Of a stretch of 64,000 nucleotides of DNA, positions 9,878 through 63,095 are shown piece by piece. Numbering within the stretch: the stretch's first letter is position 1; every line of letters starts with the position of its first letter. The notes under the pieces were generated by a model. The model ran no database searches, was not told the DNA's origin, and saw only the letters and a list, made by a program, of their open reading frames with translations. The DNA comes from Escherichia coli (GTDB lineage Bacteria; Pseudomonadota; Gammaproteobacteria; Enterobacterales; Enterobacteriaceae). The stretch is taken from assembly GCF_003991155.1 (NCBI RefSeq), contig NZ_CP031297.1, one strand, 5' to 3'. The position numbers and the translations under genes were made by a program.

Positions 9878-10476
9878 GGGTTCACCACTGAATAGGGACG
9901 CACGGACTCGCGCACAATGCGGCGATCTGCGTCAGTTACAGCCTGACTGGTGCAAAAGTGCGTCCAGGCATTCAGATAATCTTTATAGGTGTGGGTAGGT
10001 GGTATGCAGCCGGTTACAACGTCCTTGGGGATGTTTGTGGTTCCCTCGGCTTCCACAAAGCGCCAATCGTGCTCGTCCATACCTTTGCCACCATCGCAAT
10101 AGCGTTCCCAGCGTGACAACTCGTACAGCGAGTAGCCTTTGCCTTTATTCATGGACTTGAAGGTATTGATGGCTTCGTTGACATCCCCGTGCTGTTTGAT
10201 CCCTGCTGGAGTTTTATCTGAACCAGCGGAGTCATCTTTGACCTTGTTCATCGTTGCGCTGACATTACCGTCGCCCAGCACATGGATATAACCAGGTTGA
10301 CGTAATGCAGCACCACCGCGCCCCATGTTGTCCCATGCCATCGACAGTTCCCGGCTAACTCGGGCAGGTTTGTCATTTTCGGCAGGGGCAGTCTGGGGCT
10401 GAGGCTTTTGCTCGGGGGCGTTAGAGGCACACCCGGCCAGAATTGCCACTCCCAGAATTGCTATCAGTTGTCTCAT
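9859..10476 (-). CDS. Lipoprotein (MRQLIAILGVAILAGCASN lipobox)
   Basis: ATG at 10476 (residue 55 of ORF 9859..10638); lipobox LAGC. Confidence 0.75.
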   Translation of the reverse strand: MRQLIAILGVAILAGCASNAPEQKPQPQTAPAENDKPARVSRELSMAWDNMGRGGAALRQPGYIHVLGDGNVSATMNKVKDDSAGSDKTPAGIKQHGDVNEAINTFKSMNKGKGYSLYELSRWERYCDGGKGMDEHDWRFVEAEGTTNIPKDVVTGCIPPTHTYKDYLNAWTHFCTSQAVTDADRRIVRESVRPYSVVNPCKALK

Positions 10477-10599
10477 CGTGTCGTTCCTCATAAAAAATTG
10501 TCGATGAGCCCATTCTAAAAGGGGGGGGATGGAAAGCTGGTTTCTCAAACTGCCCAAATTGGACAGATAGGCGTGTGTGCGATCTAAAGGTGTTTTGAG

Positions 10600-10648
10600 A
10601 GCATGTAGCGACGAGAAATACGATAGGAATATGGTCAACCTACATGCT
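10600..10648. promoter_or_regulatory. 9-bp inverted repeat AGCATGTAG / CTACATGCT spanning the relaxase start codon
   Basis: Arms at 10600-10608 and 10640-10648 in the divergent intergenic region. Confidence 0.3.
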
Positions 10649-13616
10649 GAAAGCCCTTAACAAGTTATTTGGTGGGCGAAGTGGAGTGATCGAGACCGCG
10701 CCGAGCGTCAGAGTGTTGCCGCTTAAAGACGTGGAAGATGAAGAAATCCCTCGATACCCACCTTTTGCCAAGGGCCTGCCAGTGGCCCCACTAGACAAGA
10801 TACTGGCAACCCAAGCTGAACTGATTGAGAAAGTGCGGAACTCTCTCGGTTTCACTGTGGACGACTTCAACCGGCTTGTTTTGCCGGTGATCCAGCGGTA
10901 TGCCGCGTTTGTTCACCTGTTGCCAGCTTCCGAATCACACCACCACCGTGGCGCTGGTGGTCTGTTCCGACATGGGCTTGAAGTGGCCTTCTGGGCAGCT
11001 CAGGCATCTGAGTCAGTTATCTTTTCCATCGAGGGGACGCCTCGTGAACGCCGTGACAATGAGCCGCGTTGGAGACTGGCGAGCTGTTTCTCCGGGCTGC
11101 TGCATGATGTGGGTAAACCGCTCTCGGATGTGTCCATTACGGACAAAGACGGGTCAATCACATGGAACCCGTATTCGGAGTCACTTCATGACTGGGCACA
11201 CCGTCACGAAATCGACCGTTACTTTATCCGGTGGCGCGACAAGCGACACAAAAGACATGAGCAATTCTCGCTGCTGGCGGTGGATCGAATTATTCCGGCT
11301 GAGACTCGGGAGTTTCTGTCCAAGTCTGGCCCGTCCATCATGGAAGCGATGCTGGAAGCTATCTCAGGAACCAGCGTCAATCAGCCTGTGACCAAGCTGA
11401 TGCTTCGCGCTGACCAAGAGAGCGTCTCACGGGACCTTCGCCAGAGTCGTCTCGATGTGGACGAGTTCTCCTATGGTGTGCCTGTCGAGCGGTACGTGTT
11501 CGATGCCATCCGCCGCCTGGTTAAAACCGGAAAATGGAAGGTCAATGAGCCAGGCGCGAAAGTCTGGCACCTCAACCAAGGTGTATTCATTGCCTGGAAA
11601 CAGCTTGGGGACCTTTATGACTTGATCAGCCACGACAAGATCCCCGGTATTCCACGAGACCCTGACACACTGGCCGACATTCTCATCGAACGTGGTTTTG
11701 CTGTACCAAACACGGTGCAGGAGAAGGGTGAACGTGCGTACTACCGCTACTGGGAAGTTTTGCCTGAGATGCTCCAGGAGGCGGCGGGATCGGTGAAGAT
11801 CTTGATGCTCCGACTCGAATCAAACGACCTGGTGTTTACGACTGAGCCTCCTGCGGCTGTTGCTGCGGAAGTTGTTGGTGATGTTGAGGACGCTGAGATT
11901 GAGTTCGTTGATCCTGAGGAAGTCGATGACGACCAAGAGGAAGATGTGTCAGCTCTGAACGATGACATGTTGGCCGCAGAGCAGGAAGCAGAGAAAGCTC
12001 TAGCTGGTCTTGGCTTTGGTGATGCGATGGAGATGCTGAAAAGCACCTCAGATGCTGTCGAGGAGAAACCAGAGCAAAAAGATGCTGGATCAACGGAATC
12101 ATCTAAGCCTGACGCTGGCAAGAAGGGTAAGCCGCAGAGCAAACCGGGCAAAGCAAAACCGAAGAGTGATACAGAGAAACAACCCCACAAACCAGAGGCA
12201 AAAGAGGATTTGTCCCCTCAGGACATTGCCAAAAACGCACCACCTTTGGCAAACGACAATCCGTTACAAGCACTCAAGGATGTTGGGGGTGGACTGGGGG
12301 ACATCGACTTTCCGTTTGACGCATTCAGCGCATCGGCAGAGACAGCCAGCACTGACGCAACAAACTCAGAAATCCCAGATGTGGCAATGCCCGGAAAGCA
12401 AGAGAAGCAGCCAAAACAGGACTTCGTTCCACAAGAACAAAACTCCCTGCAGGGCGATGACTTTCCAATGTTCGGTAGTTCTGATGAACCGCCATCATGG
12501 GCGATTGAGCCGCTCCCTATGCTGACTGACGCACCAGAACAAACAACACCAGCGCCAGCAATGCCACCTACGGACAAACCTAATCTGCATGAGAAAGACG
12601 CAAAGACCTTACTCGTTGAGATGTTAGCCGGGTACGGAGAAGCATCGGCGTTGCTTGAACAAGCGATCATGCCTGTTTTGGAAGGTAAAACGACGCTGGG
12701 CGAAGTCCTATGCCTGATGAAGGGTCAAGCCGTCATTTTGTACCCGGATGGCGCTCGGTCGCTGGGTGCGCCGTCAGAGGTTCTCTCGAAGCTGTCCCAC
12801 GCCAACGCGATTGTTCCAGACCCGATTATGCCAGGTCGCAAAGTTCGTGATTTCAGCGGAGTGAAGGCAATTGTACTGGCGGAGCAGCTTTCAGATGCAG
12901 TCGTAGCGGCCATTAAGGATGCCGAGGCGTCAATGGGGGGATACCAGGATGCCTTTGAGCTCGTCTCTCCCCCTGGCTTGGATGCAAGCAAGAATAAGTC
13001 TGCACCGAAACAACAAAGCCGAAAAAAGGCGCAGCAGCAGAAGCCTGAGGTTAACGCCGGTAAACCCTCGCCTGAACAAAAGGCGAAAGGTAAGGACTCC
13101 CAGCCACAGCAGAAGGAGAAGAAGGTCGATGTTACTTCTCCGGTTGAAGAGCCGCAGCGCCAGCCGGTCCAAGAAAAACAGAACGTGGCTCGCCTTCCTA
13201 AGCGGGAGGTTCAACCAGTGGCTCCTGAGCCCAAAGTTGAGCGTGAGAAGGAATTGGGACACGTCGAGGTGCGAGAAAGGGAAGAGCCAGAGGTTAGGGA
13301 GTTTGAGCCGCCTAAGGCGAAAACAAACCCGAAAGACATCAACGCGGAAGATTTCTTGCCGTCTGGTGTTACGCCTCAGAAAGCACTCCAGATGCTCAAG
13401 GACATGATCCAAAAACGCTCGGGCAGATGGCTCGTGACACCTGTCCTGGAAGAGGATGGCTGCTTAGTAACCAGTGACAAAGCCTTCGACATGATTGCCG
13501 GTGAAAACATCGGCATCAGCAAACACATCCTCTGCGGGATGCTGAGCCGGGCACAGAGACGGCCTTTGCTCAAGAAACGTCAGGGAAAACTGTATTTAGA
13601 GGTAAATGAAACATGA
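10644..13616 (+). CDS. traI: Conjugative relaxase with HD-type metal-binding motif (MOBH-like), long acidic/Lys-Pro-rich low-complexity middle region
   Basis: 990 aa; SESHHHRGAGGLFRHGLEVAFWAAQ motif; immediately upstream of and overlapping the coupling-protein gene. Confidence 0.85.
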   Translation: MLKALNKLFGGRSGVIETAPSVRVLPLKDVEDEEIPRYPPFAKGLPVAPLDKILATQAELIEKVRNSLGFTVDDFNRLVLPVIQRYAAFVHLLPASESHHHRGAGGLFRHGLEVAFWAAQASESVIFSIEGTPRERRDNEPRWRLASCFSGLLHDVGKPLSDVSITDKDGSITWNPYSESLHDWAHRHEIDRYFIRWRDKRHKRHEQFSLLAVDRIIPAETREFLSKSGPSIMEAMLEAISGTSVNQPVTKLMLRADQESVSRDLRQSRLDVDEFSYGVPVERYVFDAIRRLVKTGKWKVNEPGAKVWHLNQGVFIAWKQLGDLYDLISHDKIPGIPRDPDTLADILIERGFAVPNTVQEKGERAYYRYWEVLPEMLQEAAGSVKILMLRLESNDLVFTTEPPAAVAAEVVGDVEDAEIEFVDPEEVDDDQEEDVSALNDDMLAAEQEAEKALAGLGFGDAMEMLKSTSDAVEEKPEQKDAGSTESSKPDAGKKGKPQSKPGKAKPKSDTEKQPHKPEAKEDLSPQDIAKNAPPLANDNPLQALKDVGGGLGDIDFPFDAFSASAETASTDATNSEIPDVAMPGKQEKQPKQDFVPQEQNSLQGDDFPMFGSSDEPPSWAIEPLPMLTDAPEQTTPAPAMPPTDKPNLHEKDAKTLLVEMLAGYGEASALLEQAIMPVLEGKTTLGEVLCLMKGQAVILYPDGARSLGAPSEVLSKLSHANAIVPDPIMPGRKVRDFSGVKAIVLAEQLSDAVVAAIKDAEASMGGYQDAFELVSPPGLDASKNKSAPKQQSRKKAQQQKPEVNAGKPSPEQKAKGKDSQPQQKEKKVDVTSPVEEPQRQPVQEKQNVARLPKREVQPVAPEPKVEREKELGHVEVREREEPEVREFEPPKAKTNPKDINAEDFLPSGVTPQKALQMLKDMIQKRSGRWLVTPVLEEDGCLVTSDKAFDMIAGENIGISKHILCGMLSRAQRRPLLKKRQGKLYLEVNET

Positions 13617-19009: not shown

Positions 19010-19291
19010 ATGAAGCCTGTAAAGATACCGCGCCGGGTCGATGAGCCCCCGCATCTGCTGTTGTGGAGCGCAGATGAGTTGGCCCCGATGCTTTTGGGGC
19101 TAACGATAGGGGTCATCATCGGTAAGGCTCTGATCTGCTTTCTGGGGGGGTTACTTGTAACCAACCTTTATCGCCGATTCAGGGATAACCATCCGGATGG
19201 ATACCTGCTCCACATGATCTACTGGGCCGGGTTCATCATGACCAAGGCCAAATCTCTCAAGAACCCGTTTGTCCGGAGGTATTTGCCTTGA
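19010..19291 (+). CDS. Small membrane protein of the T4SS cluster
   Basis: AAGAGGG SD; hydrophobic core. Confidence 0.8.
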   Translation: MKPVKIPRRVDEPPHLLLWSADELAPMLLGLTIGVIIGKALICFLGGLLVTNLYRRFRDNHPDGYLLHMIYWAGFIMTKAKSLKNPFVRRYLP

Positions 19292-19914
19292 ACCTGAAAA
19301 AGTATCTCAAGACCTGGGAAGGGACCCAAACAGAAAATAAGTGGGGGCGAATCTTCCAGGGTGGTCTTATTGCTATCGTTTTCCTGCTGGTGGTCCAAGT
19401 ATTCAGCAAGGAAACCATCGTCACTATCCAGCCTTTCACGCTCACGGAAGAAGCCTGGGTGACGAAAAGTAACGCCTCTCAGTCCTATAAAGAGGCTTGG
19501 GGTTTCGCTTTTGCTCAGCTCCTTGGCAATGTGACGCCAGGAACCGTTGACTTTGTGAAAGAACGGATCACCCCGCTTCTCTCCCCGAGCATCTATCAGG
19601 ACGTGATTGATGCCATCGAAATTCAAGCTCAACAGATCAAGAACGACCGCGTAACCATGCGGTTTGAGCCGCGTTTTGTTGAGTACGAGCCCAAGAGCGA
19701 CAAGGTGTTTGTCTACGGATATTCCTACGTCAAAGGGGCTTCTTCTAACGAAGAGCGTAGCGAACGCTCCTACGAGTTCGCCATCAAGATTTCAAACTAC
19801 GCGCCCGTGCTGGACTACATCGACACCTATGTAGGAAAGCCACGCACCAAAACTGTTTTGGAGCAACTCCAGCGCAAAGAAGAAAACCGGAGAAAGCATG
19901 AAGAACAACGCTAA
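19288..19914 (+). CDS. Membrane-anchored T4SS protein (TTG start)
   Basis: TTG start with GGAGG SD overlapping preceding stop; single N-terminal TM. Confidence 0.7.
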   Translation: MNLKKYLKTWEGTQTENKWGRIFQGGLIAIVFLLVVQVFSKETIVTIQPFTLTEEAWVTKSNASQSYKEAWGFAFAQLLGNVTPGTVDFVKERITPLLSPSIYQDVIDAIEIQAQQIKNDRVTMRFEPRFVEYEPKSDKVFVYGYSYVKGASSNEERSERSYEFAIKISNYAPVLDYIDTYVGKPRTKTVLEQLQRKEENRRKHEEQR

Positions 19915-52486: not shown

Positions 52487-52551
52487 CCCAACCGGGGCGT
52501 GACATCCCGGAGGGGATTGGTCGCGCTCATCAACAACAAAGGAGCGTGACC

Positions 52552-52776
52552 ATGAACGTACAACTTCAAGCCAGCAACAATGTGCTGTTGGCGCAAATCG
52601 AAAGCAAAGGCCTCACTGTTGAAACGCATTGTCGCAGTGGCTTTTGTGGCATGTGCCGGGTTCGTCTACTCGAAGGTCAAGTGGCTTATGACGAGACGCC
52701 CATCGCATTTGTCAAAGAAGGGGAAGTGTTGGTTTGCTGCGCTAAAGCAAAAACCGATGTGACCTTGGAAATTTAA
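52552..52776 (+). CDS. YfaE-like 2Fe-2S ferredoxin
   Basis: 74 aa; C-x4-C-x2-C ... C pattern (HCRSGFCGMCRVRL...VLVCCAK). Confidence 0.8.
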   Translation: MNVQLQASNNVLLAQIESKGLTVETHCRSGFCGMCRVRLLEGQVAYDETPIAFVKEGEVLVCCAKAKTDVTLEI

Positions 52777-54811: not shown

Positions 54812-55156
54812 ATGACTACTCTTGCCAGCTTTGCGAATCCGATTTCTGTTATTCAACGCTCACCAACCAGTGGGGTGTTTGGCACAAATCAGTTCGTAGG
54901 AGACAAAGAGGGATTTGTACAAAAGGTGCTCGGAAAGTGGTACTGCAATCCAGGGAATACCATTCCCGTTGAGAGCATGTCCCACCTTGAGCAGGCGGAG
55001 AAACTGTATGACTTCTATGTCAAGTATCTCCAAGTGAAAGAAAAGATCTCTGTGAACCTTGGCCGGGTGCTGCATAAGCTGTACAGCACTGGTTCTATCA
55101 AGGAAGCAGAGATCGTGCTTGAAGCAATAAAGGCTCAGGCTGGCGTAACAGCTTGA
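54812..55156 (+). CDS. Hypothetical protein
   Basis: ATG at 54812 with GGAG SD. Confidence 0.7.
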   Translation: MTTLASFANPISVIQRSPTSGVFGTNQFVGDKEGFVQKVLGKWYCNPGNTIPVESMSHLEQAEKLYDFYVKYLQVKEKISVNLGRVLHKLYSTGSIKEAEIVLEAIKAQAGVTA

Positions 55157-55164
55157 GCAATCTA

Positions 55165-55233
55165 CTAACCCTAAACCGGGTGCATCCGCCCGGTTCGGGA
55201 CGTGGTGCGCCCCCAAACTATTTGGAGTGCATC
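55165..55233 (+). repeat. Intercistronic hairpin/leader identical over about 60 bp to the leader at 46498..46577
   Basis: CCGGGYGCATCCGCCCGGTTCGGGACGTGGTGCGCCCCCAA...TTGGAGTGCATC shared. Confidence 0.6.
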
Positions 55234-55536
55234 ATGGAAAAACATAACCTCAAATCCGGATTCAGCATCTATTTCGCTGACGTCCATTTCGAGAAACAAG
55301 TCTACGCATTCGGCTCAGGACTTGGCTTCACCTCTGTGATTTACGCCTACTCGCTGGGCCGAGATCCGGAAGAAGCTGAGAAGCTGGCGCTTGAAAAGTA
55401 CGACTCTGACGAAACGAAGGTGAAGAAGGTGCATGTCAATCTGGCTCGCAGCCAGGACATCAACCGCTACACCTTCCCTGAACAAATGGCTGGCTTTGCT
55501 AATGCCATTCAGTCTCACGGCATCGCTGTGAACTGA
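55234..55536 (+). CDS. Hypothetical protein
   Basis: ATG at 55234 with GGAG SD. Confidence 0.7.
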   Translation: MEKHNLKSGFSIYFADVHFEKQVYAFGSGLGFTSVIYAYSLGRDPEEAEKLALEKYDSDETKVKKVHVNLARSQDINRYTFPEQMAGFANAIQSHGIAVN

Positions 55537-55613
55537 GAACCACTTTAAACCCATCGGGGCCATTACTTCCCGATTGGGACGGTAGTGGCCTCTCAACCGA
55601 AAGGAGAGAGCTC

Positions 55614-57239
55614 ATGGCTACTATCGTAAACACCAAGTTAGGAGAACATCGAGGCAAGAAGCGCGTCTGGCTGGAAGGCCAAAAGCTACTGCGTGAAGGT
55701 TACTATCCTGGCATGAAGTATGATCTGGAGCTGAAAGATTCCCAGGTTGTGCTTCGCGTCAAAGAGGAGGGTAAGTTCACCATCAGTAAGCGTGAGCGCA
55801 ATGGCCGGGTGTCTCCAATCATCGATCTGACCGTGCAGGAGCTTGCTACCGTTTTTGACGGTGTAGAGATGCTCCGCGTGTTCATCCGTAACGGCGCAAT
55901 TGTGATCTCTGCTCACCATCAACAAGAGCGAGTGATCGAGCGCGTCAACCGGCTTATCAGTAAGCTGGAGAATGGAGAATCGCTTTCGGTATGCAGCCTC
56001 TTTCATGGGGGTGGTGTGCTTGATAAAGCGATTCACGCCGGTTTTCACAAGGCGGGAATTGCCAGTGCCATATCTGTGGCCGTGGAGATGGAAGGGAAAT
56101 ATCTCGATTCGTCTTTGGCAAATAACCCGGAGCTTTGGAACGAAGATTCTATTGTTATCGAATCGCCAATCCAGGCTGTGAATCTCAGCAAACGCCCACC
56201 ACAGGTGGATGTTTTGATGGGGGGCATACCGTGTACCGGCGCGTCAAAGTCAGGTCGCAGTAAGAACAAGTTGGAGTTTGCCGAATCGCATGAGGCGGCA
56301 GGTGCCATGTTCTTCAACTTCCTGCAATTCGTAGAAGCGCTAAACCCAGCCGTTGTGCTGATTGAGAACGTGCCTGAGTACCAGAACACCGCTTCGATGG
56401 AAGTGATTCGTTCGGTGCTCTCTTCGTTGGGTTACTCCCTACAAGAGCGCATTCTCGACGGCAATGAGTTTGGGGTTATTGAGCGCCGCAAGCGTCTTTG
56501 TGTTGTTGCGCTTTCCCACGGGATCGACGGGTTTGAACTTGAGAAGGTTCAGCCTGTTCGCACCAAGGAAAGTCGCATACAGGACATCCTGGAGCCAGTT
56601 CCGCTCGATTCTGAACGTTGGAAGTCATTTGACTATCTGGCTGAGAAGGAGTTGAGAGACAAAGCTGCTGGCAAGGGGTTCTCTCGCCAGCTTCTGACTG
56701 GCGACGATGAGTTTTGCGGCACCATAGGTAAGGACTATGCAAAATGCAGAAGTACCGAACCTTTCATTGTTCATCCAGAACAGCCGGAGTTGTCTCGCAT
56801 CTTTACACCGACAGAACATTGTCGAGTGAAAGGGATACCAGAGGAACTCATCCAAGGTCTGTCGGACACTATTGCCCACCAGATTCTCGGGCAATCGGTA
56901 GTCTTTCCCGCGTTCGAGGCTTTAGCCCTCGCATTAGGGAACAGCCTGTGGAGCTGGGTTGGAATGATGCCAATCATGGTCGAAGTCGTGGATGAATCAC
57001 AGCCGGTGATCGGTGGTGAAGACTTCCATTGGGCAACGGCATTGGTTGACGCAAAGGGCACTCTCAAGCTGTCACCGGCAGCGAAAAAACAGGGGATGCC
57101 CTTCAACATTATGGATGGTCAATTGGCTGTCTATTCACCTAACGGAACTAAAAAGAGCTGCGGCCATGAGCCTTGCGAATATCTCCCGGTAATGATGTCC
57201 GGAGACGCAATCATGGTCACTTCATCTTTGGTTCATTAG
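55614..57239 (+). CDS. DNA (cytosine-5)-methyltransferase-like protein with N-terminal AbrB/MazE-like domain (paralog of 3591..5018)
   Basis: Motifs LFHGGG (I), GGIPCTGAS (PC), ENVPEY (ENV), RRKRLCVVA (VIII), LGQSVV (X). Confidence 0.85.
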   Translation: MATIVNTKLGEHRGKKRVWLEGQKLLREGYYPGMKYDLELKDSQVVLRVKEEGKFTISKRERNGRVSPIIDLTVQELATVFDGVEMLRVFIRNGAIVISAHHQQERVIERVNRLISKLENGESLSVCSLFHGGGVLDKAIHAGFHKAGIASAISVAVEMEGKYLDSSLANNPELWNEDSIVIESPIQAVNLSKRPPQVDVLMGGIPCTGASKSGRSKNKLEFAESHEAAGAMFFNFLQFVEALNPAVVLIENVPEYQNTASMEVIRSVLSSLGYSLQERILDGNEFGVIERRKRLCVVALSHGIDGFELEKVQPVRTKESRIQDILEPVPLDSERWKSFDYLAEKELRDKAAGKGFSRQLLTGDDEFCGTIGKDYAKCRSTEPFIVHPEQPELSRIFTPTEHCRVKGIPEELIQGLSDTIAHQILGQSVVFPAFEALALALGNSLWSWVGMMPIMVEVVDESQPVIGGEDFHWATALVDAKGTLKLSPAAKKQGMPFNIMDGQLAVYSPNGTKKSCGHEPCEYLPVMMSGDAIMVTSSLVH

Positions 57240-57299
57240 TAACTCACCGGGGCAATGCCGAAAGGCCTTTGCTCCGGCCTATCCGAAAGGAGAGTAATC

Positions 57300-57731
57300 A
57301 TGAAAATCGAAACTGTTGTGCCTTTACCTCCCGAGGATTCAGGCCTTCAACACTGCATTGCCAGGTTCCATAACCGCAACATGGATTCCAAGCGAAAAGA
57401 CAAGACCCGTTTTTTCAGGAGGGAGCCGGTTATGATCGTAAACCCAGAGACCAAAGCAAAGGTTCTCCGGTATGCGATGGGCAACCCTGGGAATTTATCC
57501 ATCACAAAGCTGGCGGTCGCGCTGGATTACGATGCGGTAGATGCTCTGGGTGTTCGTTTTAAAGACACTGTAAATCTTGAGGTTCGCAGAGCCAGGCGCT
57601 GGGAAGTCTGGCAGTGGTTCTGGAACCATCCGGATCAAAGTGTCCAACTGTCAATCAAATTGGGCGTGGTTGGCGCTGTGTTGGGAGTCATGGGCTTCCT
57701 GACTGGCGTAGCTCCGTACCTCTTGGGATAA
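57300..57731 (+). CDS. Hypothetical protein with C-terminal TM helix
   Basis: ATG at 57300 with AAGGAGAG SD. Confidence 0.7.
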   Translation: MKIETVVPLPPEDSGLQHCIARFHNRNMDSKRKDKTRFFRREPVMIVNPETKAKVLRYAMGNPGNLSITKLAVALDYDAVDALGVRFKDTVNLEVRRARRWEVWQWFWNHPDQSVQLSIKLGVVGAVLGVMGFLTGVAPYLLG

Positions 57732-57804
57732 ACCAATAAAGCCGTTAACGGGCAATGTAAGTCCGGAGACGGCTTGCATTGCTCTCTCGAAAGTGGAGAG
57801 TCAA

Positions 57805-58359
57805 ATGAACACATTAGAACAACTTGTAAATCAGAGAGTGCTTGAGGAAGGTCTGAAAAAGGCGAAGCCATTGGCCGCGCAAATGGGGCTTGAATCTGTA
57901 CCTGATGAGATGCTTGAAATGATCTGCCCAAACTTGAACTACTCTGGGCAGTTTACGCCAGCTCTGTACGCGAGATTTCAAAGCGTAAAGCGATTACTGA
58001 AAGAGTTGTCGGAACAAACCTCACCTAAGCACGGGCATATTGTGAAGTTTACCAACCAATATGGGAGCTACGATGAGTCAGCTTTGCTGTTCAAAGAAGG
58101 CGACGTCAGAAACCAGAACTTGGTTGCTTGTGTGGGCGGGAAGACGATAAATCTCGGAGAGCTAGAGCTTCGAGATTATGGGCTCAATATGCACATCGGT
58201 TGCGGTGGACCATTTGAGCCGATCTCAGAAGCGCAGATTCAGTCCTTGTCTGAGTTTGACTTCTATGAGACGACCTACAGATTCTGGGGCCAGAATCCAT
58301 GTGGAAACGGGATGATAGACATCACCGTCCCTATGAAACGTTGGTTCTTGACTGTGTAG
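57805..58359 (+). CDS. Hypothetical protein
   Basis: ATG at 57805 with GGAGA SD. Confidence 0.75.
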   Translation: MNTLEQLVNQRVLEEGLKKAKPLAAQMGLESVPDEMLEMICPNLNYSGQFTPALYARFQSVKRLLKELSEQTSPKHGHIVKFTNQYGSYDESALLFKEGDVRNQNLVACVGGKTINLGELELRDYGLNMHIGCGGPFEPISEAQIQSLSEFDFYETTYRFWGQNPCGNGMIDITVPMKRWFLTV

Positions 58360-58454
58360 CTTCAACCTGAGTGCGCCGAGAAATCGGCGTACCGGCCCCT
58401 TAAAAAGGGTAATCAGCGCAGGGGGAAACCCCGCGCTTTCCCAAGCATCTCGGT

Positions 58455-58523
58455 TTCCCAGGGTGCTTCGGAAAGTGCCTTAGGCGCTCAAGTGCGGTAG
58501 CTGGCTGCCAAAAACAAACAGCA
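58455..58523 (+). promoter_or_regulatory. Leader element C, copy 6
   Basis: GCGGTAGCTGGCTGCCAAAAACAAACAGCA. Confidence 0.45.
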
Positions 58524-58591
58524 AATTATCAACCCTGACGGGAGCACCTCCTGTTAGGGGGGCTCCGTCATAAACTGAACGGAGATATAGC

Positions 58592-58978
58592 ATGTCTAAA
58601 AACGTCAACGATGTTTTTTCAAACCGAACTTCTTTGGAATGTACTGTGAATGCAGCGCTGGATCGTCGTATCGGTCTGCGTGTCGGGTTCCCTCATTACA
58701 GAGAAGGAGCAAACGGTGTGGTTTGTGAGATCGAAGCAGAGTACCCATTGCTCAACACTCATTCGAGTGTTGCATGGCCCCTGCTCGATGAACTCAACAG
58801 TTACACCATCCAAAAAAACCAATCGCTCATTGATCACATTGATAATGCGGTCGCTGAACTGTTGAAACACAAGGCTCGTCTACAGCTTGATATTCAAAAG
58901 CTGCAAGACGGTGACATTGATCTGGTGAAACAGGCCAAGCAGCAATACGAAGACAACCAGATGTCGAGTAGCAGCTAG
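58592..58978 (+). CDS. Hypothetical protein
   Basis: GGAGA SD; 128 aa. Confidence 0.75.
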   Translation: MSKNVNDVFSNRTSLECTVNAALDRRIGLRVGFPHYREGANGVVCEIEAEYPLLNTHSSVAWPLLDELNSYTIQKNQSLIDHIDNAVAELLKHKARLQLDIQKLQDGDIDLVKQAKQQYEDNQMSSSS

Positions 58979-59065
58979 TTCAGGTCTGATAGCCAGGATT
59001 CAATTTTAACCCTACCGGGGTGCTTTCCCGGAAGGGATGGGCACCCTGCTAATCCAGGAGGCCCT

Positions 59066-61519
59066 ATGCAACAAACATTAAACTTTGATCTATCAGAACA
59101 ACCCATCCCAGTGCTTTTGCGTGGGGATAAGTGGGATTCTGTTTGGTCAGAACTGACTGATAACGAGGATTTGAACTTCGTTGATGCCAGTAGAGGAACC
59201 AGTCTGTCATCGTTGATCACGTCATCGGTTGAGTCCATTCACACGGCCTTAATTGATGGGTGGACCATGATGATCGGCTATTCCAGTGGTAAAGATTCTG
59301 AAACGGTCTTGCACCTGTTCCTGATGGCCCTGATCCGGGCTGTAAGGAGTGGGGCGACCATCAGCCAGCACCACTTCATCTTGCACACTGACACACTGAT
59401 CGAAAGCCCAGAGGTAAGGTGGCTGGCGGATCAGAAACTGGCCGAGCTGGAGCGTTTCATTGCGAAGGAAAACCTTCCTCTGACCATCGTTCTAGCAAAG
59501 CCTGGGATCTCGCAGAGTTGGACGGGCCGAATCCTTACTGGGAGGGGGTTGCCTACGTTTTCCAACTCCACGGCCCGCCAGTGTAGCCAGGATTTAAAAA
59601 TCACCTCTGCCAAAAGAGCGAAGGCAGCTTATATGCGAGAGCTTCCCAAAGAGGTTCGACAGAAAGTCTGCCTTTTGCTGGGCAGTCGTGATGCTGAAAG
59701 CACTATTCGTGCGGCCAACATTGCAAAACAGCGAGGAAGCTCAGATCGCGTCATTAAGACGAAAGATGGGGGTGAGCTGTATGTGGTGAAAAACTGGTTG
59801 GCGAGTGATGTCTGGGAGTTCTTACTATCCGCTGGCATGGGCTCAGCATATCCTCTGCCAAGTTACTTGGAGAGCAATGTCACTACGGCAGAGCTTTACA
59901 AGGCGGCAACAGGGGAGTGCGTGTGGTCGGCAACAGAGAAGAAGGCCAGTGACGCCTGTGGCGCTCGCTTCGGTTGCTGGGCTTGCCAGGCTGTTGGGTT
60001 GGATAAGTCAATGGAGACGTTGCTTGCCACGGACCCTGAAAGGCATGGCTATATGTCGGGGCTGAACCGCATCCAGCGCTACTTGGCAAAACGCCGGTAC
60101 GCATGGGAAGACCGCCATCCCGTAGGTCGAACGATTTACGAGGGCGGATACATCAAAATACAGCCGGACGTTTACAGTCCTGTTTTCCTAGAACGATTGC
60201 TTCATGTCTGTTGCAGCATGGACTACATGGAGCAAAAGAGAGCTGATGAGCTGGCATACAAGCTGGCTACTGGTCAAGCAGAGGATAACGACTGGAACCG
60301 TCGAATGGCAGAGCCACAATTCCGGATCATATCGGAAGAGGCTTTAGTCCATATCGACTTCATGTGGGCCTTCCATCATTTCAATGATAAGCCTTTCCAT
60401 GCCCTGGAGATTTACCACAGGGTTTGGTCGATGGGTGATCTGGACTTGCTGGAAGACGAGCCGCAGTGTGAAACCGTTCCTCAGTCACCAATTCCGAAGC
60501 CATTGTGGTTGAAGGTTGGTCGCTGGGGCGATGGTTCGCTTTCTGATGGCTTGGCCGATCCGTTAGCGGAAATGGCTTACTTTGACGGCGGGGATGACCC
60601 GTTGGCAGCGCAAGTGATCAATACCGCAGACGGAAAGAGAAGGGTGGTTTGCTTCGCAGAAGATGATGAAGTGAAAGTCGATCCCGACTCCGCTGCGTTC
60701 ATCATCTGGAACGAATACCCGCGACTAAGGGAGTCTGTACTAAAGGGACATTATACGCCCGGTAGTGCAGCGCAGTTCTACCTTCGGTTCGGAGCAATCC
60801 AGCTTGCGAAAGGAAAAGGCGCTTTGTATCACCGTATGATGCAAAGAGGTCAAACCTACCACCAGATGGGCCTTACAGGGCTACAGACGATGGAAGGAAT
60901 CCAACAGCGCAAGGATGTCAAAGTGCTTAGCGATGCTAAGTACAAAGATCTGGTGAAGCGAAAAATCAAGGGAAGACTGGCAACGGTACGCTGGTGGGTC
61001 AACTTGCACTTAACGTTCAAGTACCATCTGCACCACCGTACTCCGACGGGGTTGTTCATCGAGAAGCAACTTGACCAGGAAGCAATGGAAGAACAGAAAC
61101 GGCATCAGGAGCGATGGTTTAACTACGTGACTGACGCGATGCTTTGTTACTCCAGCGCATTCTGTATGAGCGTCATGGAAGGGCGAGAGGGGAGCGGAAA
61201 CGCCAACATTCGTCGTTACATGGCCGCGACCAGAAGGAAGGCTTATACGGCCCTCTGCGAGCTCTTGGACAATACTGACGCCCAGTGGATGAATGATGTG
61301 GTCCAGAGTGCCGTAGGGCAGTATGAGGCGATACAGGCAGCCCTAACCGAAGGTTCCGCGCTTGCTATCTATCTCGACTGGATCAACCTACTGTCAAAAC
61401 GCCATCCAGCCTCTTTGGAGCGACATGTCAGAACGATGATCAAGGCGGTTCAACGCTTACATCGCCGCGACGACACAGAGTTGCAAAGAGGACAGCAAGG
61501 CTTGTCCTTGGCCGCATAA
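59066..61519 (+). CDS. PP-loop ATP pyrophosphatase family protein (PAPS reductase/DndC-like N-domain) with long C-terminal extension
   Basis: 817 aa; PP-loop IGYSSGKDS; Cys cluster CGARFGCWAC; AGGAGG SD. Confidence 0.85.
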   Translation: MQQTLNFDLSEQPIPVLLRGDKWDSVWSELTDNEDLNFVDASRGTSLSSLITSSVESIHTALIDGWTMMIGYSSGKDSETVLHLFLMALIRAVRSGATISQHHFILHTDTLIESPEVRWLADQKLAELERFIAKENLPLTIVLAKPGISQSWTGRILTGRGLPTFSNSTARQCSQDLKITSAKRAKAAYMRELPKEVRQKVCLLLGSRDAESTIRAANIAKQRGSSDRVIKTKDGGELYVVKNWLASDVWEFLLSAGMGSAYPLPSYLESNVTTAELYKAATGECVWSATEKKASDACGARFGCWACQAVGLDKSMETLLATDPERHGYMSGLNRIQRYLAKRRYAWEDRHPVGRTIYEGGYIKIQPDVYSPVFLERLLHVCCSMDYMEQKRADELAYKLATGQAEDNDWNRRMAEPQFRIISEEALVHIDFMWAFHHFNDKPFHALEIYHRVWSMGDLDLLEDEPQCETVPQSPIPKPLWLKVGRWGDGSLSDGLADPLAEMAYFDGGDDPLAAQVINTADGKRRVVCFAEDDEVKVDPDSAAFIIWNEYPRLRESVLKGHYTPGSAAQFYLRFGAIQLAKGKGALYHRMMQRGQTYHQMGLTGLQTMEGIQQRKDVKVLSDAKYKDLVKRKIKGRLATVRWWVNLHLTFKYHLHHRTPTGLFIEKQLDQEAMEEQKRHQERWFNYVTDAMLCYSSAFCMSVMEGREGSGNANIRRYMAATRRKAYTALCELLDNTDAQWMNDVVQSAVGQYEAIQAALTEGSALAIYLDWINLLSKRHPASLERHVRTMIKAVQRLHRRDDTELQRGQQGLSLAA

Positions 61520-61520
61520 A

Positions 61521-61550
61521 AAGCCCTCCTTCGGGAGGGCTTTTTCTTTT
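61521..61550 (+). terminator. Intrinsic terminator (AGCCCTCC-ttcg-GGAGGGCT + T-run)
   Basis: Perfect hairpin + TTTTTCTTTT. Confidence 0.75.
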
Positions 61551-61580
61551 GCACCCCAAAAGGGCAATTACAGCGTTTTA
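61547..61580 (+). promoter_or_regulatory. Motif B (GCACCCC-AAAA-GGGC ... TTACAGCG), copy 8
   Basis: Immediately after terminator. Confidence 0.4.
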
Positions 61581-61599
61581 CCCTTTTAGGTGGCTGTCA

Positions 61600-61657
61600 T
61601 ACTCTTTGTTCATTGTCAGCGCTTGCTGGCTATAACGGTAGCTGGCCCAAAACAGCA
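61600..61657 (+). promoter_or_regulatory. Leader element C, copy 7 (divergent)
   Basis: GGTAGCTGGCCCAAAACAGCA. Confidence 0.35.
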
Positions 61658-61720
61658 ATAACCTAACCCCTCGGGAGGAAACCCCTCCTGGGTTCTCTCC
61701 CACAAACAAAGGAGAGAAGC

Positions 61721-61924
61721 ATGAGCCTAGACAAGTTAAGTCGGCTGGTGGACCAACAACGAAAGATCCAGGATGAAATCGACAATGAAATCATTCTGGC
61801 CGTCAAAGAGGTGTTGGCTACAAACTCAGTCGGTTTAGCCCGTGAGCTTGTTGGGGGTGTCCCGCAAGATCATCCATTCCATCCGTTTTTACTCGCTATA
61901 GCTAAGCAGCTTGACCCGAGATAA
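61721..61924 (+). CDS. Small hypothetical protein (67 aa)
   Basis: AAGGAGAGAAG SD. Confidence 0.65.
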   Translation: MSLDKLSRLVDQQRKIQDEIDNEIILAVKEVLATNSVGLARELVGGVPQDHPFHPFLLAIAKQLDPR

Positions 61925-61995
61925 CTAAGTAACCCAACCGGGTACACCAAGGCCCGGTCGGCTTTGGTGTACCTCCAACCAATTTTGGAGGCACT

Positions 61996-62601
61996 ATGTC
62001 TAATTCAAATTTCGGCTTTCTAGCTCTGGCCTTGCGCCAACGCCTGATCAAACGCTGGTCACTGATGCACTCTGTTCAACCGGAGTCTGTGTTGGAACAC
62101 AGCGCTGTTGTTACCCTGCTTTCCTACCTGGCTGGCAATATTGCCATTCAGCAAGGGAAGTCGGTGGATCTGGCAGTCATGCTTGCTCATGCTTCGTTGC
62201 ATGATGCAGCCGAGGTTCTCTGTTCGGATGTTGTAACACCGGTCAAGAAAGCAAACGCTGTTTTGCAGCGTGAGTTTGAACGACTGGAAAAGGCCGCAGA
62301 GGACAAACTCATCCAGACTCTTCCCGAAGAACTCCAGGATGCAGTCGCCATAGCCTTCGCTCCCGGTGGCTATGAACAATCACTGGTTAAGGCCTGTGAT
62401 ACCTACTCCGCTTACATCAAGTGCAAACTTGAGGTGGCCGCAGGTAATGGCCTTGAGTTCCAGGATGCTCTCAGCAAAATGGAACGTGTTGTTGCTCAGG
62501 TGAAATCGGACTTCCCGGAAATCGACGCTCTGGACAAATGGTTTGGTAACGGACTCGGCCATTCAGTAGATAAACTGCTGGCAGGGGGTAACGATGACTA
62601 A
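61996..62601 (+). CDS. HD-domain 5'-deoxynucleotidase, YfbR-like
   Basis: Aligns along its length with E. coli YfbR as recalled: RWSLM...SVLEHS...SLHDAAEVL...TPVKK...LVKACDTYSAYIKC. Confidence 0.85.
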   Translation: MSNSNFGFLALALRQRLIKRWSLMHSVQPESVLEHSAVVTLLSYLAGNIAIQQGKSVDLAVMLAHASLHDAAEVLCSDVVTPVKKANAVLQREFERLEKAAEDKLIQTLPEELQDAVAIAFAPGGYEQSLVKACDTYSAYIKCKLEVAAGNGLEFQDALSKMERVVAQVKSDFPEIDALDKWFGNGLGHSVDKLLAGGNDD

Positions 62602-62863
62602 TCCAATCCCTGGCGACATCAAGATTAAGGACTTTGGCCGCGACCGGAAATTCCGTTCGGTTGATGAGCTTCAAAGCACTTTGTCAGAACAGTACAAAGG
62701 TCAGCATGTCAGCATCGTTTACCCTGCAAAGCCCAGCGGTTTACTCCGCACGGTTTTTGTCAGTGTCGATGATGCTGGTGGCGTGAATCGAACCTATGGG
62801 GACCAGTCTCCTGTCGATTTTTCTGCCATCAAAGATGACCTGTATGTACCAAGTGACCTGTAG
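62594..62863 (+). CDS. Hypothetical protein
   Basis: GGGGGTAA SD; overlaps preceding stop. Confidence 0.65.
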   Translation: MTNPIPGDIKIKDFGRDRKFRSVDELQSTLSEQYKGQHVSIVYPAKPSGLLRTVFVSVDDAGGVNRTYGDQSPVDFSAIKDDLYVPSDL

Positions 62864-62876
62864 GAGAGCACTAGCT

Positions 62877-63095
62877 ATGGTGGTGATCATCGTAAACACA
62901 GGACACTATGAGTTTATCGGCCTTGGTGAGACCCACGGACAAGCCACAGAAGGGCTTTTGAAACGCTGGGACGAACACTGCGAACGTAATCCGGATGCTG
63001 AGTCTGGTTACATGCAGGAGCTGATAGAAGAAGGAAGCGCACAAGTTGTCGAGATGGAGCCCGGCTCCGCCGTAATTTACGGACTTGACGGCTAA
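62877..63095 (+). CDS. Small hypothetical protein (72 aa)
   Basis: ATG at 62877 with AGGAGA SD. Confidence 0.5.
   Translation: MVVIIVNTGHYEFIGLGETHGQATEGLLKRWDEHCERNPDAESGYMQELIEEGSAQVVEMEPGSAVIYGLDG

What the first reader, a model, noticed from the sequence alone, without database searches (positions are those of the whole stretch)
59066..61519. Lone 817-aa PP-loop (PAPS reductase/DndC-like) protein with no visible partner genes
The N-terminal domain has the PP-loop motif IGYSSGKDS and a Cys cluster CGARFGCWAC of the kind seen in DndC-type and PAPS-reductase-like enzymes. It carries a roughly 500-aa C-terminal extension without recognisable motifs. No DndA/B/D/E-like genes were recognised by motif in the window. 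It ends at a strong terminator and is followed by a block containing the YfbR-like nucleotidase. It could catalyse a DNA or nucleotide modification.
Basis: partly seen in the sequence, partly recalled or inferred. Interest (0 to 1): 0.7.

Follow-up and report, generated by a model that had tools for sequence, protein, structure and literature searches.

The report
Lone DndC-like sulfur enzyme on IncC plasmid
This backbone gene of IncC antibiotic-resistance plasmids encodes an uncharacterised enzyme related to the sulfur-inserting subunit (DndC) of bacterial DNA phosphorothioation systems. It has none of that subunit's usual partners and is switched on together with the plasmid's transfer genes, so it may mark plasmid DNA to help it survive in new hosts.

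Summary
Window 59066..61519 (+) is an intact 817-aa ORF with a good ribosome-binding site and a strong terminator. It is gene vcrx113 of the IncC plasmid backbone, found in about 700 plasmid records.

Residues ~53-464 are DndC-like, with the PP-loop SSGKDS and five Cys in the DndC pattern. All tested family members score 110-147 bits on the DndC-type NCBIfam models, well below the curated cut-offs. No DndA/B/D/E gene lies next to it in IncC. Apart from one DndB-annotated gene in one lineage, none lies next to it in the nine other elements examined.

A quarter of divergent members end in a QLxLF peptide that resembles the sliding-clamp-binding motif, and a third end in Ala-Ala. Published RNA-seq shows vcrx113 depends on the conjugation activator AcaCD (expression 6 versus 298 and 979).

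Best reading: a self-sufficient, conjugation-linked DNA sulfur-modification enzyme acting as counter-defence. The chemistry, the substrate and the clamp binding are inferred, not shown.

The parts
59056..59061 (+). Shine-Dalgarno AGGAGG, 4 nt before the ATG. It is partly paired in a predicted leader hairpin.
   Evidence: Sequence read. Fold (-32.7 kcal/mol, z -2.2).
59066..61519 (+). CDS of the 817-aa solo DndC-like protein (vcrx113 of pVCR94; WP_001187969.1, annotated 'phosphoadenosine phosphosulfate reductase').
   Evidence: Mapped to vcrx113 by length and by neighbours vcrx112, vcrx114 and vcrx115.
59222..60457 (+). DndC-like PP-loop ATP-pyrophosphatase / Fe-S region, aa ~53-464.
   Evidence: PADLOC DndC 1.4e-41. 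TIGR03183 1.3e-34 and PRK06850 5.8e-41. Foldseek matches to the PAPS-reductase-like domain of FAD synthase, CysH, APS reductase and TtuA. AF2 pLDDT mostly above 95.
59282..59299 (+). PP-loop motif SSGKDS (aa 73-78).
   Evidence: S73, D77 and S78 are invariant, and G75 and K76 are conserved in at least 90% of 135 family sequences.
59582..59584 (+). Cys173 (RQCS), the counterpart of DndC Cys146.
   Evidence: Invariant. Aligned with RWCT of the genuine DndC P0100. Residue role taken from PMC12193691.
59918..59986 (+). Cys cluster C285 (GEC), C298, C304 and C307 (CGARFGCWAC), the predicted [4Fe-4S] and sulfur-relay site.
   Evidence: C304 and C307 are invariant, and C285 and C298 are conserved in at least 90%. 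The order matches DndC Cys262/273/280/283 and the spacing is similar. This loop has low pLDDT, as expected when the cluster is absent from the model.
60383..60949 (+). Family-specific alpha/beta domain (aa 440-628), conserved across the whole family, with no solved structural relative.
60932..61465 (+). Variable helical bundle (aa 623-800). It is present in the ~800-aa classes (IncC, an IncHI-type plasmid protein, Vibrio) and absent from the ~570-670-aa members.
61466..61516 (+). Low-confidence, probably disordered C-terminal tail ending in QQGLSLAA (61493-61516). This is a degenerate Q-x-x-L-x-L clamp-binding-like peptide plus a terminal Ala-Ala.
   Evidence: pLDDT 53 and 46 for the last two blocks. 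Family statistics.
61518..61551 (+). Intrinsic terminator (12-bp stem, UUCG loop, T-run).

Best explanation
SHOWN:
- The gene encodes a member of a large, uncharacterised sister family of DndC.
- The family is carried mainly by conjugative plasmids, and the loci examined in detail are all mobile-element-like.
- It keeps the PP-loop and the five DndC-pattern cysteines. The DndC models stop matching before their C-terminal parts, where DndC is predicted to bind DndD; in its place the family has a domain of its own.
- It has no DndD or DndE gene nearby.
- In IncC it is expressed only when the conjugation master activator AcaCD is present.

INFERRED:
- It is a self-sufficient DNA sulfur transferase. 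By analogy with DndC, a [4Fe-4S] cluster on C173/C298/C304/C307 takes sulfur from the host cysteine desulfurase IscS, possibly relayed through C285.
- The PP-loop uses ATP to adenylate a backbone phosphate, and sulfur then displaces AMP to leave a phosphorothioate.
- DNA targeting is supplied by the family-specific C-terminal domain instead of by DndD/DndE. In many members it may also come from tethering to the beta sliding clamp through a terminal QLxLF peptide, which would act on newly replicated plasmid DNA.
- The biological role would match that of the orphan DNA methyltransferases encoded beside it: marking plasmid DNA around the time of transfer so that it escapes restriction or nucleases in new hosts.
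- The frequent terminal Ala-Ala may make the protein short-lived through a ClpXP-type degron.
For: Homology: DndC models are the best hits. All five Cys align with a genuine DndC, P0100, which scores 364.8 bits and sits next to DndD-like and DndE-like genes.

Conservation: the catalytic residues are invariant or conserved in at least 90% of 135 sequences that share down to 24% identity with the query. This argues for an active enzyme.

Solo status: there is no Dnd partner in IncC. Nine other elements have no DndD or DndE either. Only SSB is shared between the IncC neighbourhood and those loci.

DNA context: neighbours are recurrently orphan C5 and N6 DNA methyltransferases, SSB, ArdA antirestriction, primases and nucleotide-metabolism genes. 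A PADLOC type II methyltransferase model matches the PP-loop domain at 1.6e-24, which is most simply explained by fusions of this domain to DNA methyltransferases; I did not inspect that model.

Clamp motif: 32 of 121 representatives (at most 50% identical to one another) have Q[LMIV]x[LMIF][FLMWY] in their last 15 residues. That compares with 0.5% of internal windows, a mean of 1.1 in shuffled tails (maximum 5 in 1,000 shuffles) and 1 of 216 background ORFs (Fisher 7e-15). The motif sits at the extreme C-terminus whatever the tail length.

Regulation: vcrx113 expression is 298 in wild type, 6 in the acaCD deletion and 979 when complemented, q=0, like the whole vcrx098-125 block and the tra genes (PMC4207636 Dataset S1).

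Literature: DndC is an ATP pyrophosphatase that depends on its [4Fe-4S] cluster (PMC6435447). A 2026 preprint reports DndC/SspD-like PAPS reductases in phage anti-defence operons.
Against: - No modification of IncC DNA, and no phenotype of a vcrx113 mutant, was found in the searchable literature.
- According to Roy et al. 2020, Tn-seq for transfer into V. cholerae O395 singled out only vcrx089-093. I could not see the per-gene table.
- In every known phosphorothioation system (Dnd, Ssp, BREX type 4) the DndC-like subunit needs an ATPase and a DNA-recognition subunit. A solo enzyme would be unprecedented.
- The window's own tail (QQGLSLAA) is only a degenerate form of the clamp motif. The five ~790-805-aa members shown in alignment A1 (P0041-P0055) and the ~650-670-aa class lack it.
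- The C-terminal domain is acidic overall (net charge -6) and resembles no known DNA-binding fold.
- The gene is interrupted by an IS3-family element in one plasmid, so it is dispensable for maintenance there.
Confidence: 0.4

Rival explanations
1. It thiolates or otherwise modifies RNA (tRNA) or a free nucleotide rather than DNA, as the PP-loop/[4Fe-4S] enzymes TtuA, TtcA and NcsA do. That could tune translation or nucleotide pools during transfer.
For: The PP-loop domain resembles TtuA and LarE sulfur transferases in structure (Foldseek 1.6e-3 and weaker). Nucleotide-metabolism genes are near it in IncC (YfbR) and in L007 (ThyA, dUTPase). No DNA-binding fold was recognised.
Against: No tRNA-thiolation family matched in NCBIfam at E<=0.1. 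The best and only strong matches are DndC models. The DndC-specific Cys pair is present. The neighbourhoods are rich in DNA methyltransferases and antirestriction genes. A clamp-binding-like terminal peptide makes sense only for a DNA-acting protein.
Confidence: 0.15
2. It is not solo. It works with host or unlinked partners, for example by plugging into a resident DndDE, SspBC or BREX type 4 machinery to raise modification of the incoming plasmid. Alternatively it blocks such systems by titrating IscS or their subunits, as an anti-Dnd/Ssp decoy.
For: One lineage (MOBF/MPF_T plasmid NZ_CP149824.1) has a DndB-annotated gene two genes upstream. A preprint states that a phage PAPS reductase helps evade Dnd; I could not see the source it cites.
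Against: The DndC models stop matching at positions 370/447 and 375/505. By my reckoning that is before the part of E. coli B7A DndC predicted to bind DndD (residues 433-482 and the terminal helix). A different conserved domain takes its place. The catalytic residues are invariant across the family, which a decoy would not need. IncC and IncHI-type plasmids occur in many hosts, and to my knowledge most of those hosts have no dnd or ssp genes.
Confidence: 0.12
3. The terminal QLxLF-like peptide and Ala-Ala are not clamp-binding and degron signals. They may be another kind of signal, for example for recognition by the conjugative coupling protein so that the enzyme is exported to the recipient, or a different partner-binding peptide.
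For: Plasmid proteins are known to be translocated through conjugative type IV secretion systems (cited in PMC11541004). The family is mostly on conjugative elements. Binding to DnaN was not tested.
Against: The consensus recovered (QLSLF, QLDLF, QLALF, QLELF, QLxLPL) is, from my knowledge of the literature, the published beta-clamp-binding consensus, and it sits at the extreme C-terminus as in Pol II and Pol IV. I know of no secretion signal of this form.
Confidence: 0.1
4. It is what the annotation says: a PAPS/APS reductase of sulfate assimilation.
For: The database name and superfamily-level structural similarity to CysH.
Against: No CysH model matched at E<=0.1. Pfam's PAPS_reduct model does not even match this copy. 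The protein is 817 aa with extra domains, whereas the solved CysH chains are 212-231 residues. It sits on a plasmid under conjugation control.
Confidence: 0.02

Closest known systems
DndC / DptC (sulfurtransferase subunit of the DndABCDE DNA phosphorothioation system; TIGR03183)
   Same: PP-loop SGGKDS-type motif. Five cysteines in the same order and with similar spacing, including the two that are DndC-specific (Cys262 and Cys273 of E. coli B7A DndC). It is the best HMM match over ~380-410 residues. It presumably has the same ATP-pyrophosphatase / Fe-S sulfur-transfer chemistry.
   Different: It scores 120 bits against a 290-bit cut-off. The models' C-terminal parts, where DndD is predicted to bind, are not matched; instead there is a 190-aa domain of unknown fold, a helical bundle and a terminal short peptide. 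It is never next to dndD or dndE. It is plasmid- or ICE-borne and controlled by a conjugation activator.
SspD and BrxP (PAPS-reductase-like subunits of SspABCD and BREX type 4 phosphorothioation)
   Same: Same superfamily and the same presumed role as sulfur donor to DNA. Both are also found with variable extra C-terminal modules.
   Different: No SspD- or BrxP-named PADLOC model matched at E<=0.1. BrxP is reported to lack the DndC-specific Cys pair that this protein has (PMC12839542). Those proteins work with SspB/DUF4007 and SspC/BrxC, which are absent here.
Orphan DNA methyltransferases of conjugative plasmids (for example dcm1/vcrx109 in the same AcaCD-dependent block)
   Same: Single-gene DNA-modification functions in plasmid accessory or establishment regions. 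In IncC they are co-regulated with transfer genes and are thought to protect incoming DNA from restriction.
   Different: Different chemistry (sulfur and ATP versus methyl and SAM), and the protective role is unproven for this gene.
TtuA / TtcA-type [4Fe-4S] PP-loop tRNA thiolases
   Same: A PP-loop fold with a [4Fe-4S] cluster used for sulfur insertion after adenylation of the target.
   Different: Only weak structural similarity, confined to the PP-loop domain. No sequence-family match. Different accessory domains.
Phage PAPS-reductase-like proteins in anti-defence loci (PHROG 424 / 12882 / 2302)
   Same: Mobile-element-borne, DndC/SspD-like, and placed among anti-defence genes.
   Different: Only weak matches (2.7e-11 at best). 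The family-specific C-terminal domain has no real phage match: the single hit in the phage collection is a Salmonella record.

Membership tests
DndC (TIGR03183, Dnd phosphorothioation) | PP-loop ATP-pyrophosphatase motif SGGKDS | tested here: met
   SSGKDS at aa 73-78. S73, D77 and S78 are invariant across 135 family sequences.
DndC (TIGR03183, Dnd phosphorothioation) | Cysteines for the [4Fe-4S] cluster plus the DndC-specific Cys pair (B7A Cys146, 262, 273, 280, 283) | tested here: met
   C173, C285, C298, C304 and C307 align column by column with the genuine DndC P0100 and are conserved in at least 90% of the family. Residue roles come from PMC12193691. Cluster binding itself was not tested.
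DndC (TIGR03183, Dnd phosphorothioation) | Score at or above the curated equivalog cut-off | tested here: not met
   119.9 bits versus 290.4. Seven other family members score 110-138 bits, and the control P0100 scores 364.8.
DndC (TIGR03183, Dnd phosphorothioation) | Encoded in a cluster with dndD and dndE (often also dndB and dndA) | tested here: not met
   None in the window or in the part of a reference IncC plasmid that I read, about four-fifths of it. No DndD or DndE in nine other family loci. The control DndC has DndD-like and DndE-like neighbours. One lineage has a DndB-annotated gene nearby.
DndC (TIGR03183, Dnd phosphorothioation) | C-terminal DndD-binding region | tested here: not met
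   The HMM alignments end at model positions 370/447 and 375/505. The sequence beyond is a family-specific domain with no Pfam or PDB relative. Mapping this to B7A residues 433-482 is my inference.
DndC (TIGR03183, Dnd phosphorothioation) | Produces phosphorothioate linkages in DNA | not testable with these tools
   Needs LC-MS/MS or iodine-cleavage sequencing.
Assimilatory PAPS/APS reductase (CysH) | Match to CysH family models, and a single ~245-aa domain | tested here: not met
   No CysH model matched at E<=0.1, and there was no Pfam PF01507 hit for this copy. Only fold-level similarity of the PP-loop domain. The protein is 817 aa.
SspD / BrxP | Match to SspD or BrxP models, and a neighbouring SspB/DUF4007 and SspC/BrxC | tested here: not met
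   Only DndC and one methyltransferase model matched in PADLOC. No such neighbours were found. I did not check whether PADLOC v2 actually holds SspD and BrxP models.
tRNA-thiolating PP-loop enzymes (TtuA/TtcA/ThiI/MnmA) | Match to the family models | tested here: not met
   None matched in NCBIfam at E<=0.1. Foldseek to TtuA gave 1.6e-3, on the PP-loop domain only.
Beta sliding-clamp-binding proteins | QL[SD]LF or QLxLxL peptide on a flexible terminus | tested here: inconclusive
   At family level the motif is strongly enriched at the extreme C-terminus: 32 of 121 versus ~1 expected. The window copy has the degenerate QQGLSLAA on a low-pLDDT tail. Binding to DnaN was not tested.

The most novel reading that the evidence does not exclude
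A single polypeptide carries out DNA phosphorothioation, or another DNA thio-modification, without any DndD/E- or SspB/C-type partner. It is recruited to freshly replicated DNA by the beta sliding clamp, and the major multidrug-resistance plasmids (IncC, IncHI-type and others) use it as a conjugation-timed, broad-spectrum counter-defence.
Probability: 0.25. Interest if true: 0.85.

Novelty: new variant of a known kind. Interest (0 to 1): 0.6.

Why it matters
IncC and IncHI-type plasmids are among the main vehicles of multidrug resistance in Enterobacteria and Vibrio. How they enter so many hosts despite restriction systems is only partly understood.

This family matches 2,807 of 72,556 plasmid records and is part of the IncC conjugation regulon, yet no function has been assigned to it.

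If it modifies DNA on its own, it would be the minimal phosphorothioation enzyme. It would be a new kind of plasmid anti-restriction function alongside orphan methyltransferases. It might also be the first bacterial DNA-modifying enzyme coupled to the replisome through the sliding clamp. It would be a simple tool for installing phosphorothioates in vivo as well.

If it does not modify DNA, a conserved Fe-S/PP-loop enzyme co-expressed with transfer genes still needs an explanation.

Tried and rejected
- Pfam scan of the full protein: no hit even at E<=10. The DndC-specific libraries were needed.
- PDB sequence search: only the PAPS-like domain of FAD synthase, and no DndC structure matched.
- Foldseek against PDB and AFDB50: only PP-loop domains and unannotated family members.
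- PHROGs: only weak generic PAPS-reductase families. The phage collection has no true phage copy of the C-domain.
- Conserved partner genes: tblastn of 27 IncC neighbours against 13 loci from other elements found only SSB. This rejects YfaE, YfbR, vcrx112 and vcrx114 as conserved partners.
- PADLOC and NCBIfam scans of neighbours: only methyltransferases, YfaE and YfbR.
- Literature: no paper links IncC to this gene's function. The supplements of Roy et al. 2020 with per-gene Tn-seq data are not held. The source for 'a phage PAPS reductase evades Dnd' could not be traced.
- The promoter scan gave no sigma-70-like site. The terminator scan missed the obvious terminator, so I verified it by folding.
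Full report
**1. The observation**

Window 59066..61519 (+) is an uninterrupted 817-codon ORF with an ATG start. AGGAGG lies 4 nt upstream of the start. Immediately after the stop codon there is a 12-bp GC-rich hairpin with a UUCG loop and a T-run. It folds at -19.8 kcal/mol, z = -4.4, and none of 200 shuffles folds as well. The consensus scan missed it.

The YfbR-like gene (61996..62601) and the YfaE-like ferredoxin (52546..52776) both pass their curated NCBIfam cut-offs.

One correction is needed. The DndC-like region runs to about aa 440-464, so the 'extension' is about 355-375 aa rather than about 500.

**2. Where it comes from**

The window is the backbone of an IncC (IncA/C2) conjugative plasmid.
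- The gene matches 700 plasmid records, 623 of them at 99% identity or more. They come from Klebsiella, Escherichia, Salmonella, Vibrio, Aeromonas and others, and 692 are typed as conjugative.
- In pSN254b it is WP_001187969.1, annotated 'phosphoadenosine phosphosulfate reductase'.
- By length and neighbours it is vcrx113 of the model plasmid pVCR94. vcrx112 (387 nt), vcrx114 (204 nt) and vcrx115 (606 nt, = yfbR) correspond to window ORFs 58592..58978, 61721..61924 and 61996..62601.
- In one plasmid the gene is split by an IS3-family element.

**3. What the protein is**

Pfam gives no hit, even at E<=10. The best matches are DndC models:
- PADLOC DndC, 1.4e-41 over aa 53-464.
- NCBIfam PRK06850, 5.8e-41.
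- NCBIfam TIGR03183 (DndC), 1.3e-34 over aa 66-441.

These scores are far below the curated cut-offs: 119.9 versus 290.4 bits, and 140.8 versus 536. No CysH model and no tRNA-thiolase model matched at E<=0.1, and CysD (sulfate adenylyltransferase) models matched only marginally (E 0.0035 and 0.082).

A PADLOC 'type II methyltransferase' model also matches the PP-loop region at 1.6e-24. The simplest reason is that this domain occurs fused to DNA methyltransferases, though I did not inspect the model.

As a positive control I took P0100, a distant hit. It scores 364.8 bits on TIGR03183 and sits directly upstream of a DndD-like SMC/AAA_23 ATPase and a DndE-FtsK fusion.

In the alignment, the window protein's C173, C285, C298, C304 and C307 fall in the same columns as the five cysteines of P0100. 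Published modelling and mutagenesis assign DndC Cys146/273/280/283 to the [4Fe-4S] cluster and note Cys262 as DndC-specific (PMC12193691). The order is the same here and the spacing is similar.

Across 135 family sequences sharing down to 24% identity with the query:
- Invariant: S73, D77, S78 (PP-loop), C173, K178, R208, E211, R215, Y278, R301, G303, C304 and C307.
- Conserved in at least 90%: C285 and C298.

This pattern is what one expects of an active enzyme with DndC-type chemistry.

**4. The family and its architecture**

An exhaustive phmmer search of 1.84 billion cluster representatives found 1,073 clusters at E<=1e-3 and 239 at E<=1e-30. Typical members are 570-650 aa and align with query residues ~50 to ~600-640. 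Seven members from across the family score 110-138 bits on TIGR03183. The family is thus a coherent sister group of DndC rather than a set of degenerate DndCs.

AlphaFold2 with a 135-sequence alignment gave a very confident model (mean pLDDT 93.5, pTM 0.83). It shows four parts:
- A PP-loop / DndC-like part up to about aa 440. The Cys-cluster loop has low confidence, as expected without the cofactor.
- A compact alpha/beta domain at aa ~440-628.
- A bundle of long helices at aa 623-800.
- A low-confidence tail.

Foldseek against the PDB finds only PP-loop domains: the PAPS-like domain of FAD synthase, CysH, APS reductase, TtuA and LarE. No DndC chain matched in either PDB search.

The helical bundle is variable and is absent from the shorter classes.

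**5. A terminal short peptide**

The tails of family members cannot be aligned with one another. Yet many end in QLSLF, QLDLF, QLALF, QLELF or QLxLPL, often followed by AA. From my knowledge of the literature, this matches the beta sliding-clamp-binding consensus QL[SD]LF / QLxLxL, as in Pol II, Pol IV and Hda.

| Feature in the last 15 residues | 121 representatives (at most 50% identical) | Controls |
|---|---|---|
| Q[LMIV]x[LMIF][FLMWY] | 32 | 0.5% of internal 15-residue windows; shuffled tails mean 1.1, maximum 5 in 1,000; 1 of 216 background ORFs (Fisher 7e-15) |
| Q[LMIV]x[LMI]F | 23 | 0.23 expected from shuffles |
| Ends in Ala-Ala | 39 | AA dipeptide frequency 1%; 14 of 216 background ORFs (Fisher 1e-9) |

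The window copy ends in RGQQGLSLAA, a degenerate Q-x-x-L-x-L plus AA. Close relatives end in QVVLSLAA, QLALPLVA and QPSLPL. The five ~790-805-aa members shown in alignment A1 (P0041-P0055) and the ~650-670-aa class lack the Q-motif.

I read this as a family-level short linear motif, most likely for clamp binding. The terminal Ala-Ala may be an ssrA-like ClpXP degron. Both readings are inferences, and neither was tested.

**6. Genomic context**

*In IncC.* The gene sits in a long co-directional array of small unknown genes. The array also contains the host-defence-evasion operon (vcrx089-093: an AAA ATPase, ssb, bet, exo), the methyltransferases dcm3 and dcm1, a YfaE-like ferredoxin and a YfbR-like 5'-deoxynucleotidase. 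I read the annotation for positions 1-120,594 of the 152,216-bp reference plasmid, and no DndA/B/D/E is annotated there.

*In other elements.*
- An RctB-type plasmid with a giant methyltransferase-helicase and SSB (L004).
- Elements with the PRTRC ThiF/E2/JAB cassette, a methyltransferase and a primase (L005/L006, L013).
- A 318-kb element with C5 and N6/N4 methyltransferases, ThyA and dUTPase (L007).
- A ParM/ParA plasmid (L009).
- A 241-kb E. coli plasmid (L012).
- A 54.7-kb MOBF/MPF_T plasmid. There the gene lies between a DndB-annotated gene and an N6 methylase, with ArdA antirestriction further downstream (L014/L015).

DndD and DndE never appear. A tblastn of 27 IncC neighbours against these loci found only SSB in common.

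A tblastn search with a family member matched 2,807 of 72,556 plasmid records, of which 2,162 are typed conjugative. The weakest of these matches, such as those in Bacillus plasmids, cover only the PP-loop region. The family-specific domain has no true phage copy.

The protein is therefore genuinely solo, and it is characteristic of plasmids, mostly conjugative ones, and of other mobile-element-like contigs.

**7. Regulation**

Published RNA-seq for pVCR94 (Carraro et al. 2014, PMC4207636, Dataset S1) gives these vcrx113 expression values:

| Condition | Expression |
|---|---|
| Wild type | 298 |
| acaCD deletion | 6 |
| Deletion complemented with AcaCD | 979 |

The gene is called differentially expressed (q = 0) in both comparisons. 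Most of the + strand block vcrx098-vcrx125 behaves the same way, including dcm1 (501 / 4 / 2,677), and so do the tra genes.

ChIP-exo sites are listed upstream of vcrx098 and vcrx114, but not upstream of vcrx112. vcrx113 is therefore probably reached by read-through or by an unmapped promoter.

By my coordinate mapping, which is uncertain by about 3 nt, the vcrx114 AcaCD box lies at about window 61545-61575, right after the vcrx113 terminator. The stretch 55000-63000 has no sigma-70-like promoter match, against 6.3 +/- 2.3 in shuffles. This fits promoters that depend on an activator.

The leaders of vcrx113 and vcrx114 are predicted to pair their Shine-Dalgarno sequences in hairpins (z -2.2 and -3.1). 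This is like the structure Roy et al. described for vcrx089.

**8. Mechanism proposed**

Shown: a DndC-type catalytic core is conserved; the gene is solo; it is carried mostly by conjugative plasmids; in IncC it is expressed with the transfer regulon.

Inferred:
- As in DndC, the host desulfurase IscS loads sulfur onto a [4Fe-4S]/Cys site. DndC is an ATP pyrophosphatase whose activity needs its [4Fe-4S] cluster, and it has been proposed to adenylate the target phosphate before sulfur attack (PMC6435447).
- The PP-loop then adenylates a DNA backbone phosphate, and sulfur replaces AMP.
- DNA engagement comes from the family-specific domain. In many members it may also come from the sliding clamp, so that nascent plasmid DNA is marked.
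- The mark protects the plasmid in new hosts, in parallel with the neighbouring orphan methyltransferases.

I put this at about 0.4. The main weaknesses are:
- No modification or phenotype has been reported.
- Every known phosphorothioation system needs an ATPase and a DNA reader.
- The IncC tail motif is degenerate.
- The new domain is acidic and resembles no DNA-binding fold.

**9. Rivals**

- An RNA or nucleotide substrate (0.15).
- Dependence on, or interference with, host Dnd/Ssp machinery (0.12).
- The terminal peptide serving another purpose, such as T4SS export (0.1).
- Genuine sulfate assimilation (0.02).

The evidence for and against each is given in the rival-explanations section.

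**10. Comparison and novelty**

The protein works most like DndC, but it fails three tested membership criteria: the curated score, the dndDE neighbourhood and the C-terminal region. It should not be filed as DndC, CysH, SspD/BrxP or a tRNA thiolase.

It is best described as a new variant of a known kind: a solo, mobile-element DndC-like family with its own C-terminal domain and terminal peptide. The gene itself is a catalogued locus, but I found no functional study of it.

A 2026 preprint independently notes DndC/SspD-like PAPS reductases in phage anti-defence operons. This supports the general counter-defence idea but concerns different proteins.

**11. Verdict**

This is a real and well-defined feature. 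Its classification as a lone DndC-like enzyme is sound, and its function is unknown but testable with standard assays. Interest is 0.6: the gene is widespread in clinically important plasmids, tied to conjugation, and has an unprecedented architecture for this chemistry, but the key claims are still inference.

Noticed in passing
pSN254b NZ_KJ909290.1 2554..3669 (-) (L010); vcrx007 of pVCR94. It was not located in the window and probably lies outside it.: The IncC backbone carries a second, shorter (371-aa) PAPS-reductase-family gene near the replication region. In the published RNA-seq it is essentially silent (expression 4 / 0 / 0).
   Followed up: partly
window 55000..63000: There are no sigma-70-like promoter matches in 8 kb, against 6.3 +/- 2.3 in shuffles. 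This fits a block transcribed from activator-dependent (AcaCD) promoters.
   Followed up: partly
window ~61545..61575 (mapped from pVCR94 86650-86678, uncertain by about 3 nt): The published AcaCD-binding site that drives the vcrx114-119 operon (which includes yfbR) lies immediately after the vcrx113 terminator. The two units are therefore insulated from each other but co-regulated.
   Followed up: partly
window 58990..59075 and 61650..61730: The 5' leaders of vcrx113 and vcrx114 both contain GC-rich hairpins predicted to pair the Shine-Dalgarno sequence (z -2.2 and -3.1). They resemble the RBS-sequestering structure reported upstream of vcrx089. This may be a recurring translational control in this block.
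   Followed up: partly
C-termini of family proteins (for example window 61511..61516): About a third of family members end in Ala-Ala: 39 of 121 distant and 35 of 92 close members, against an AA dipeptide frequency of 1%. They do so whether or not they carry the QLxLF motif. This may be an ssrA-like ClpXP degron. The background plasmid ORFs also showed an unexpectedly high 6.5%.
   Followed up: partly
NZ_CP141561.1 62179..65984 (hit H1): In one Klebsiella IncC plasmid the gene is interrupted by an IS3-family transposase, so it is dispensable for plasmid maintenance there.
   Followed up: no
L015 (NZ_CP149824.1) 10470..11558, and 19180..19611: In a 54.7-kb MOBF/MPF_T plasmid, the 669-aa family member has a DndB-annotated gene two genes upstream, and an N6 methylase and ArdA antirestriction gene downstream. 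This is the only Dnd-named neighbour seen in any locus.
   Followed up: partly
L005 798..4425; L013 2414..4013: Family members in two unrelated elements lie next to the PRTRC cassette (prokaryotic ubiquitin-like, E2-like, JAB and ThiF genes) that is typical of conjugative elements.
   Followed up: no
window protein aa 31-339 versus PADLOC PDLC03333: A 'type II methyltransferase' defence model matches the PP-loop region at 1.6e-24. This suggests that PAPS-reductase-like domains occur fused to DNA methyltransferases.
   Followed up: no
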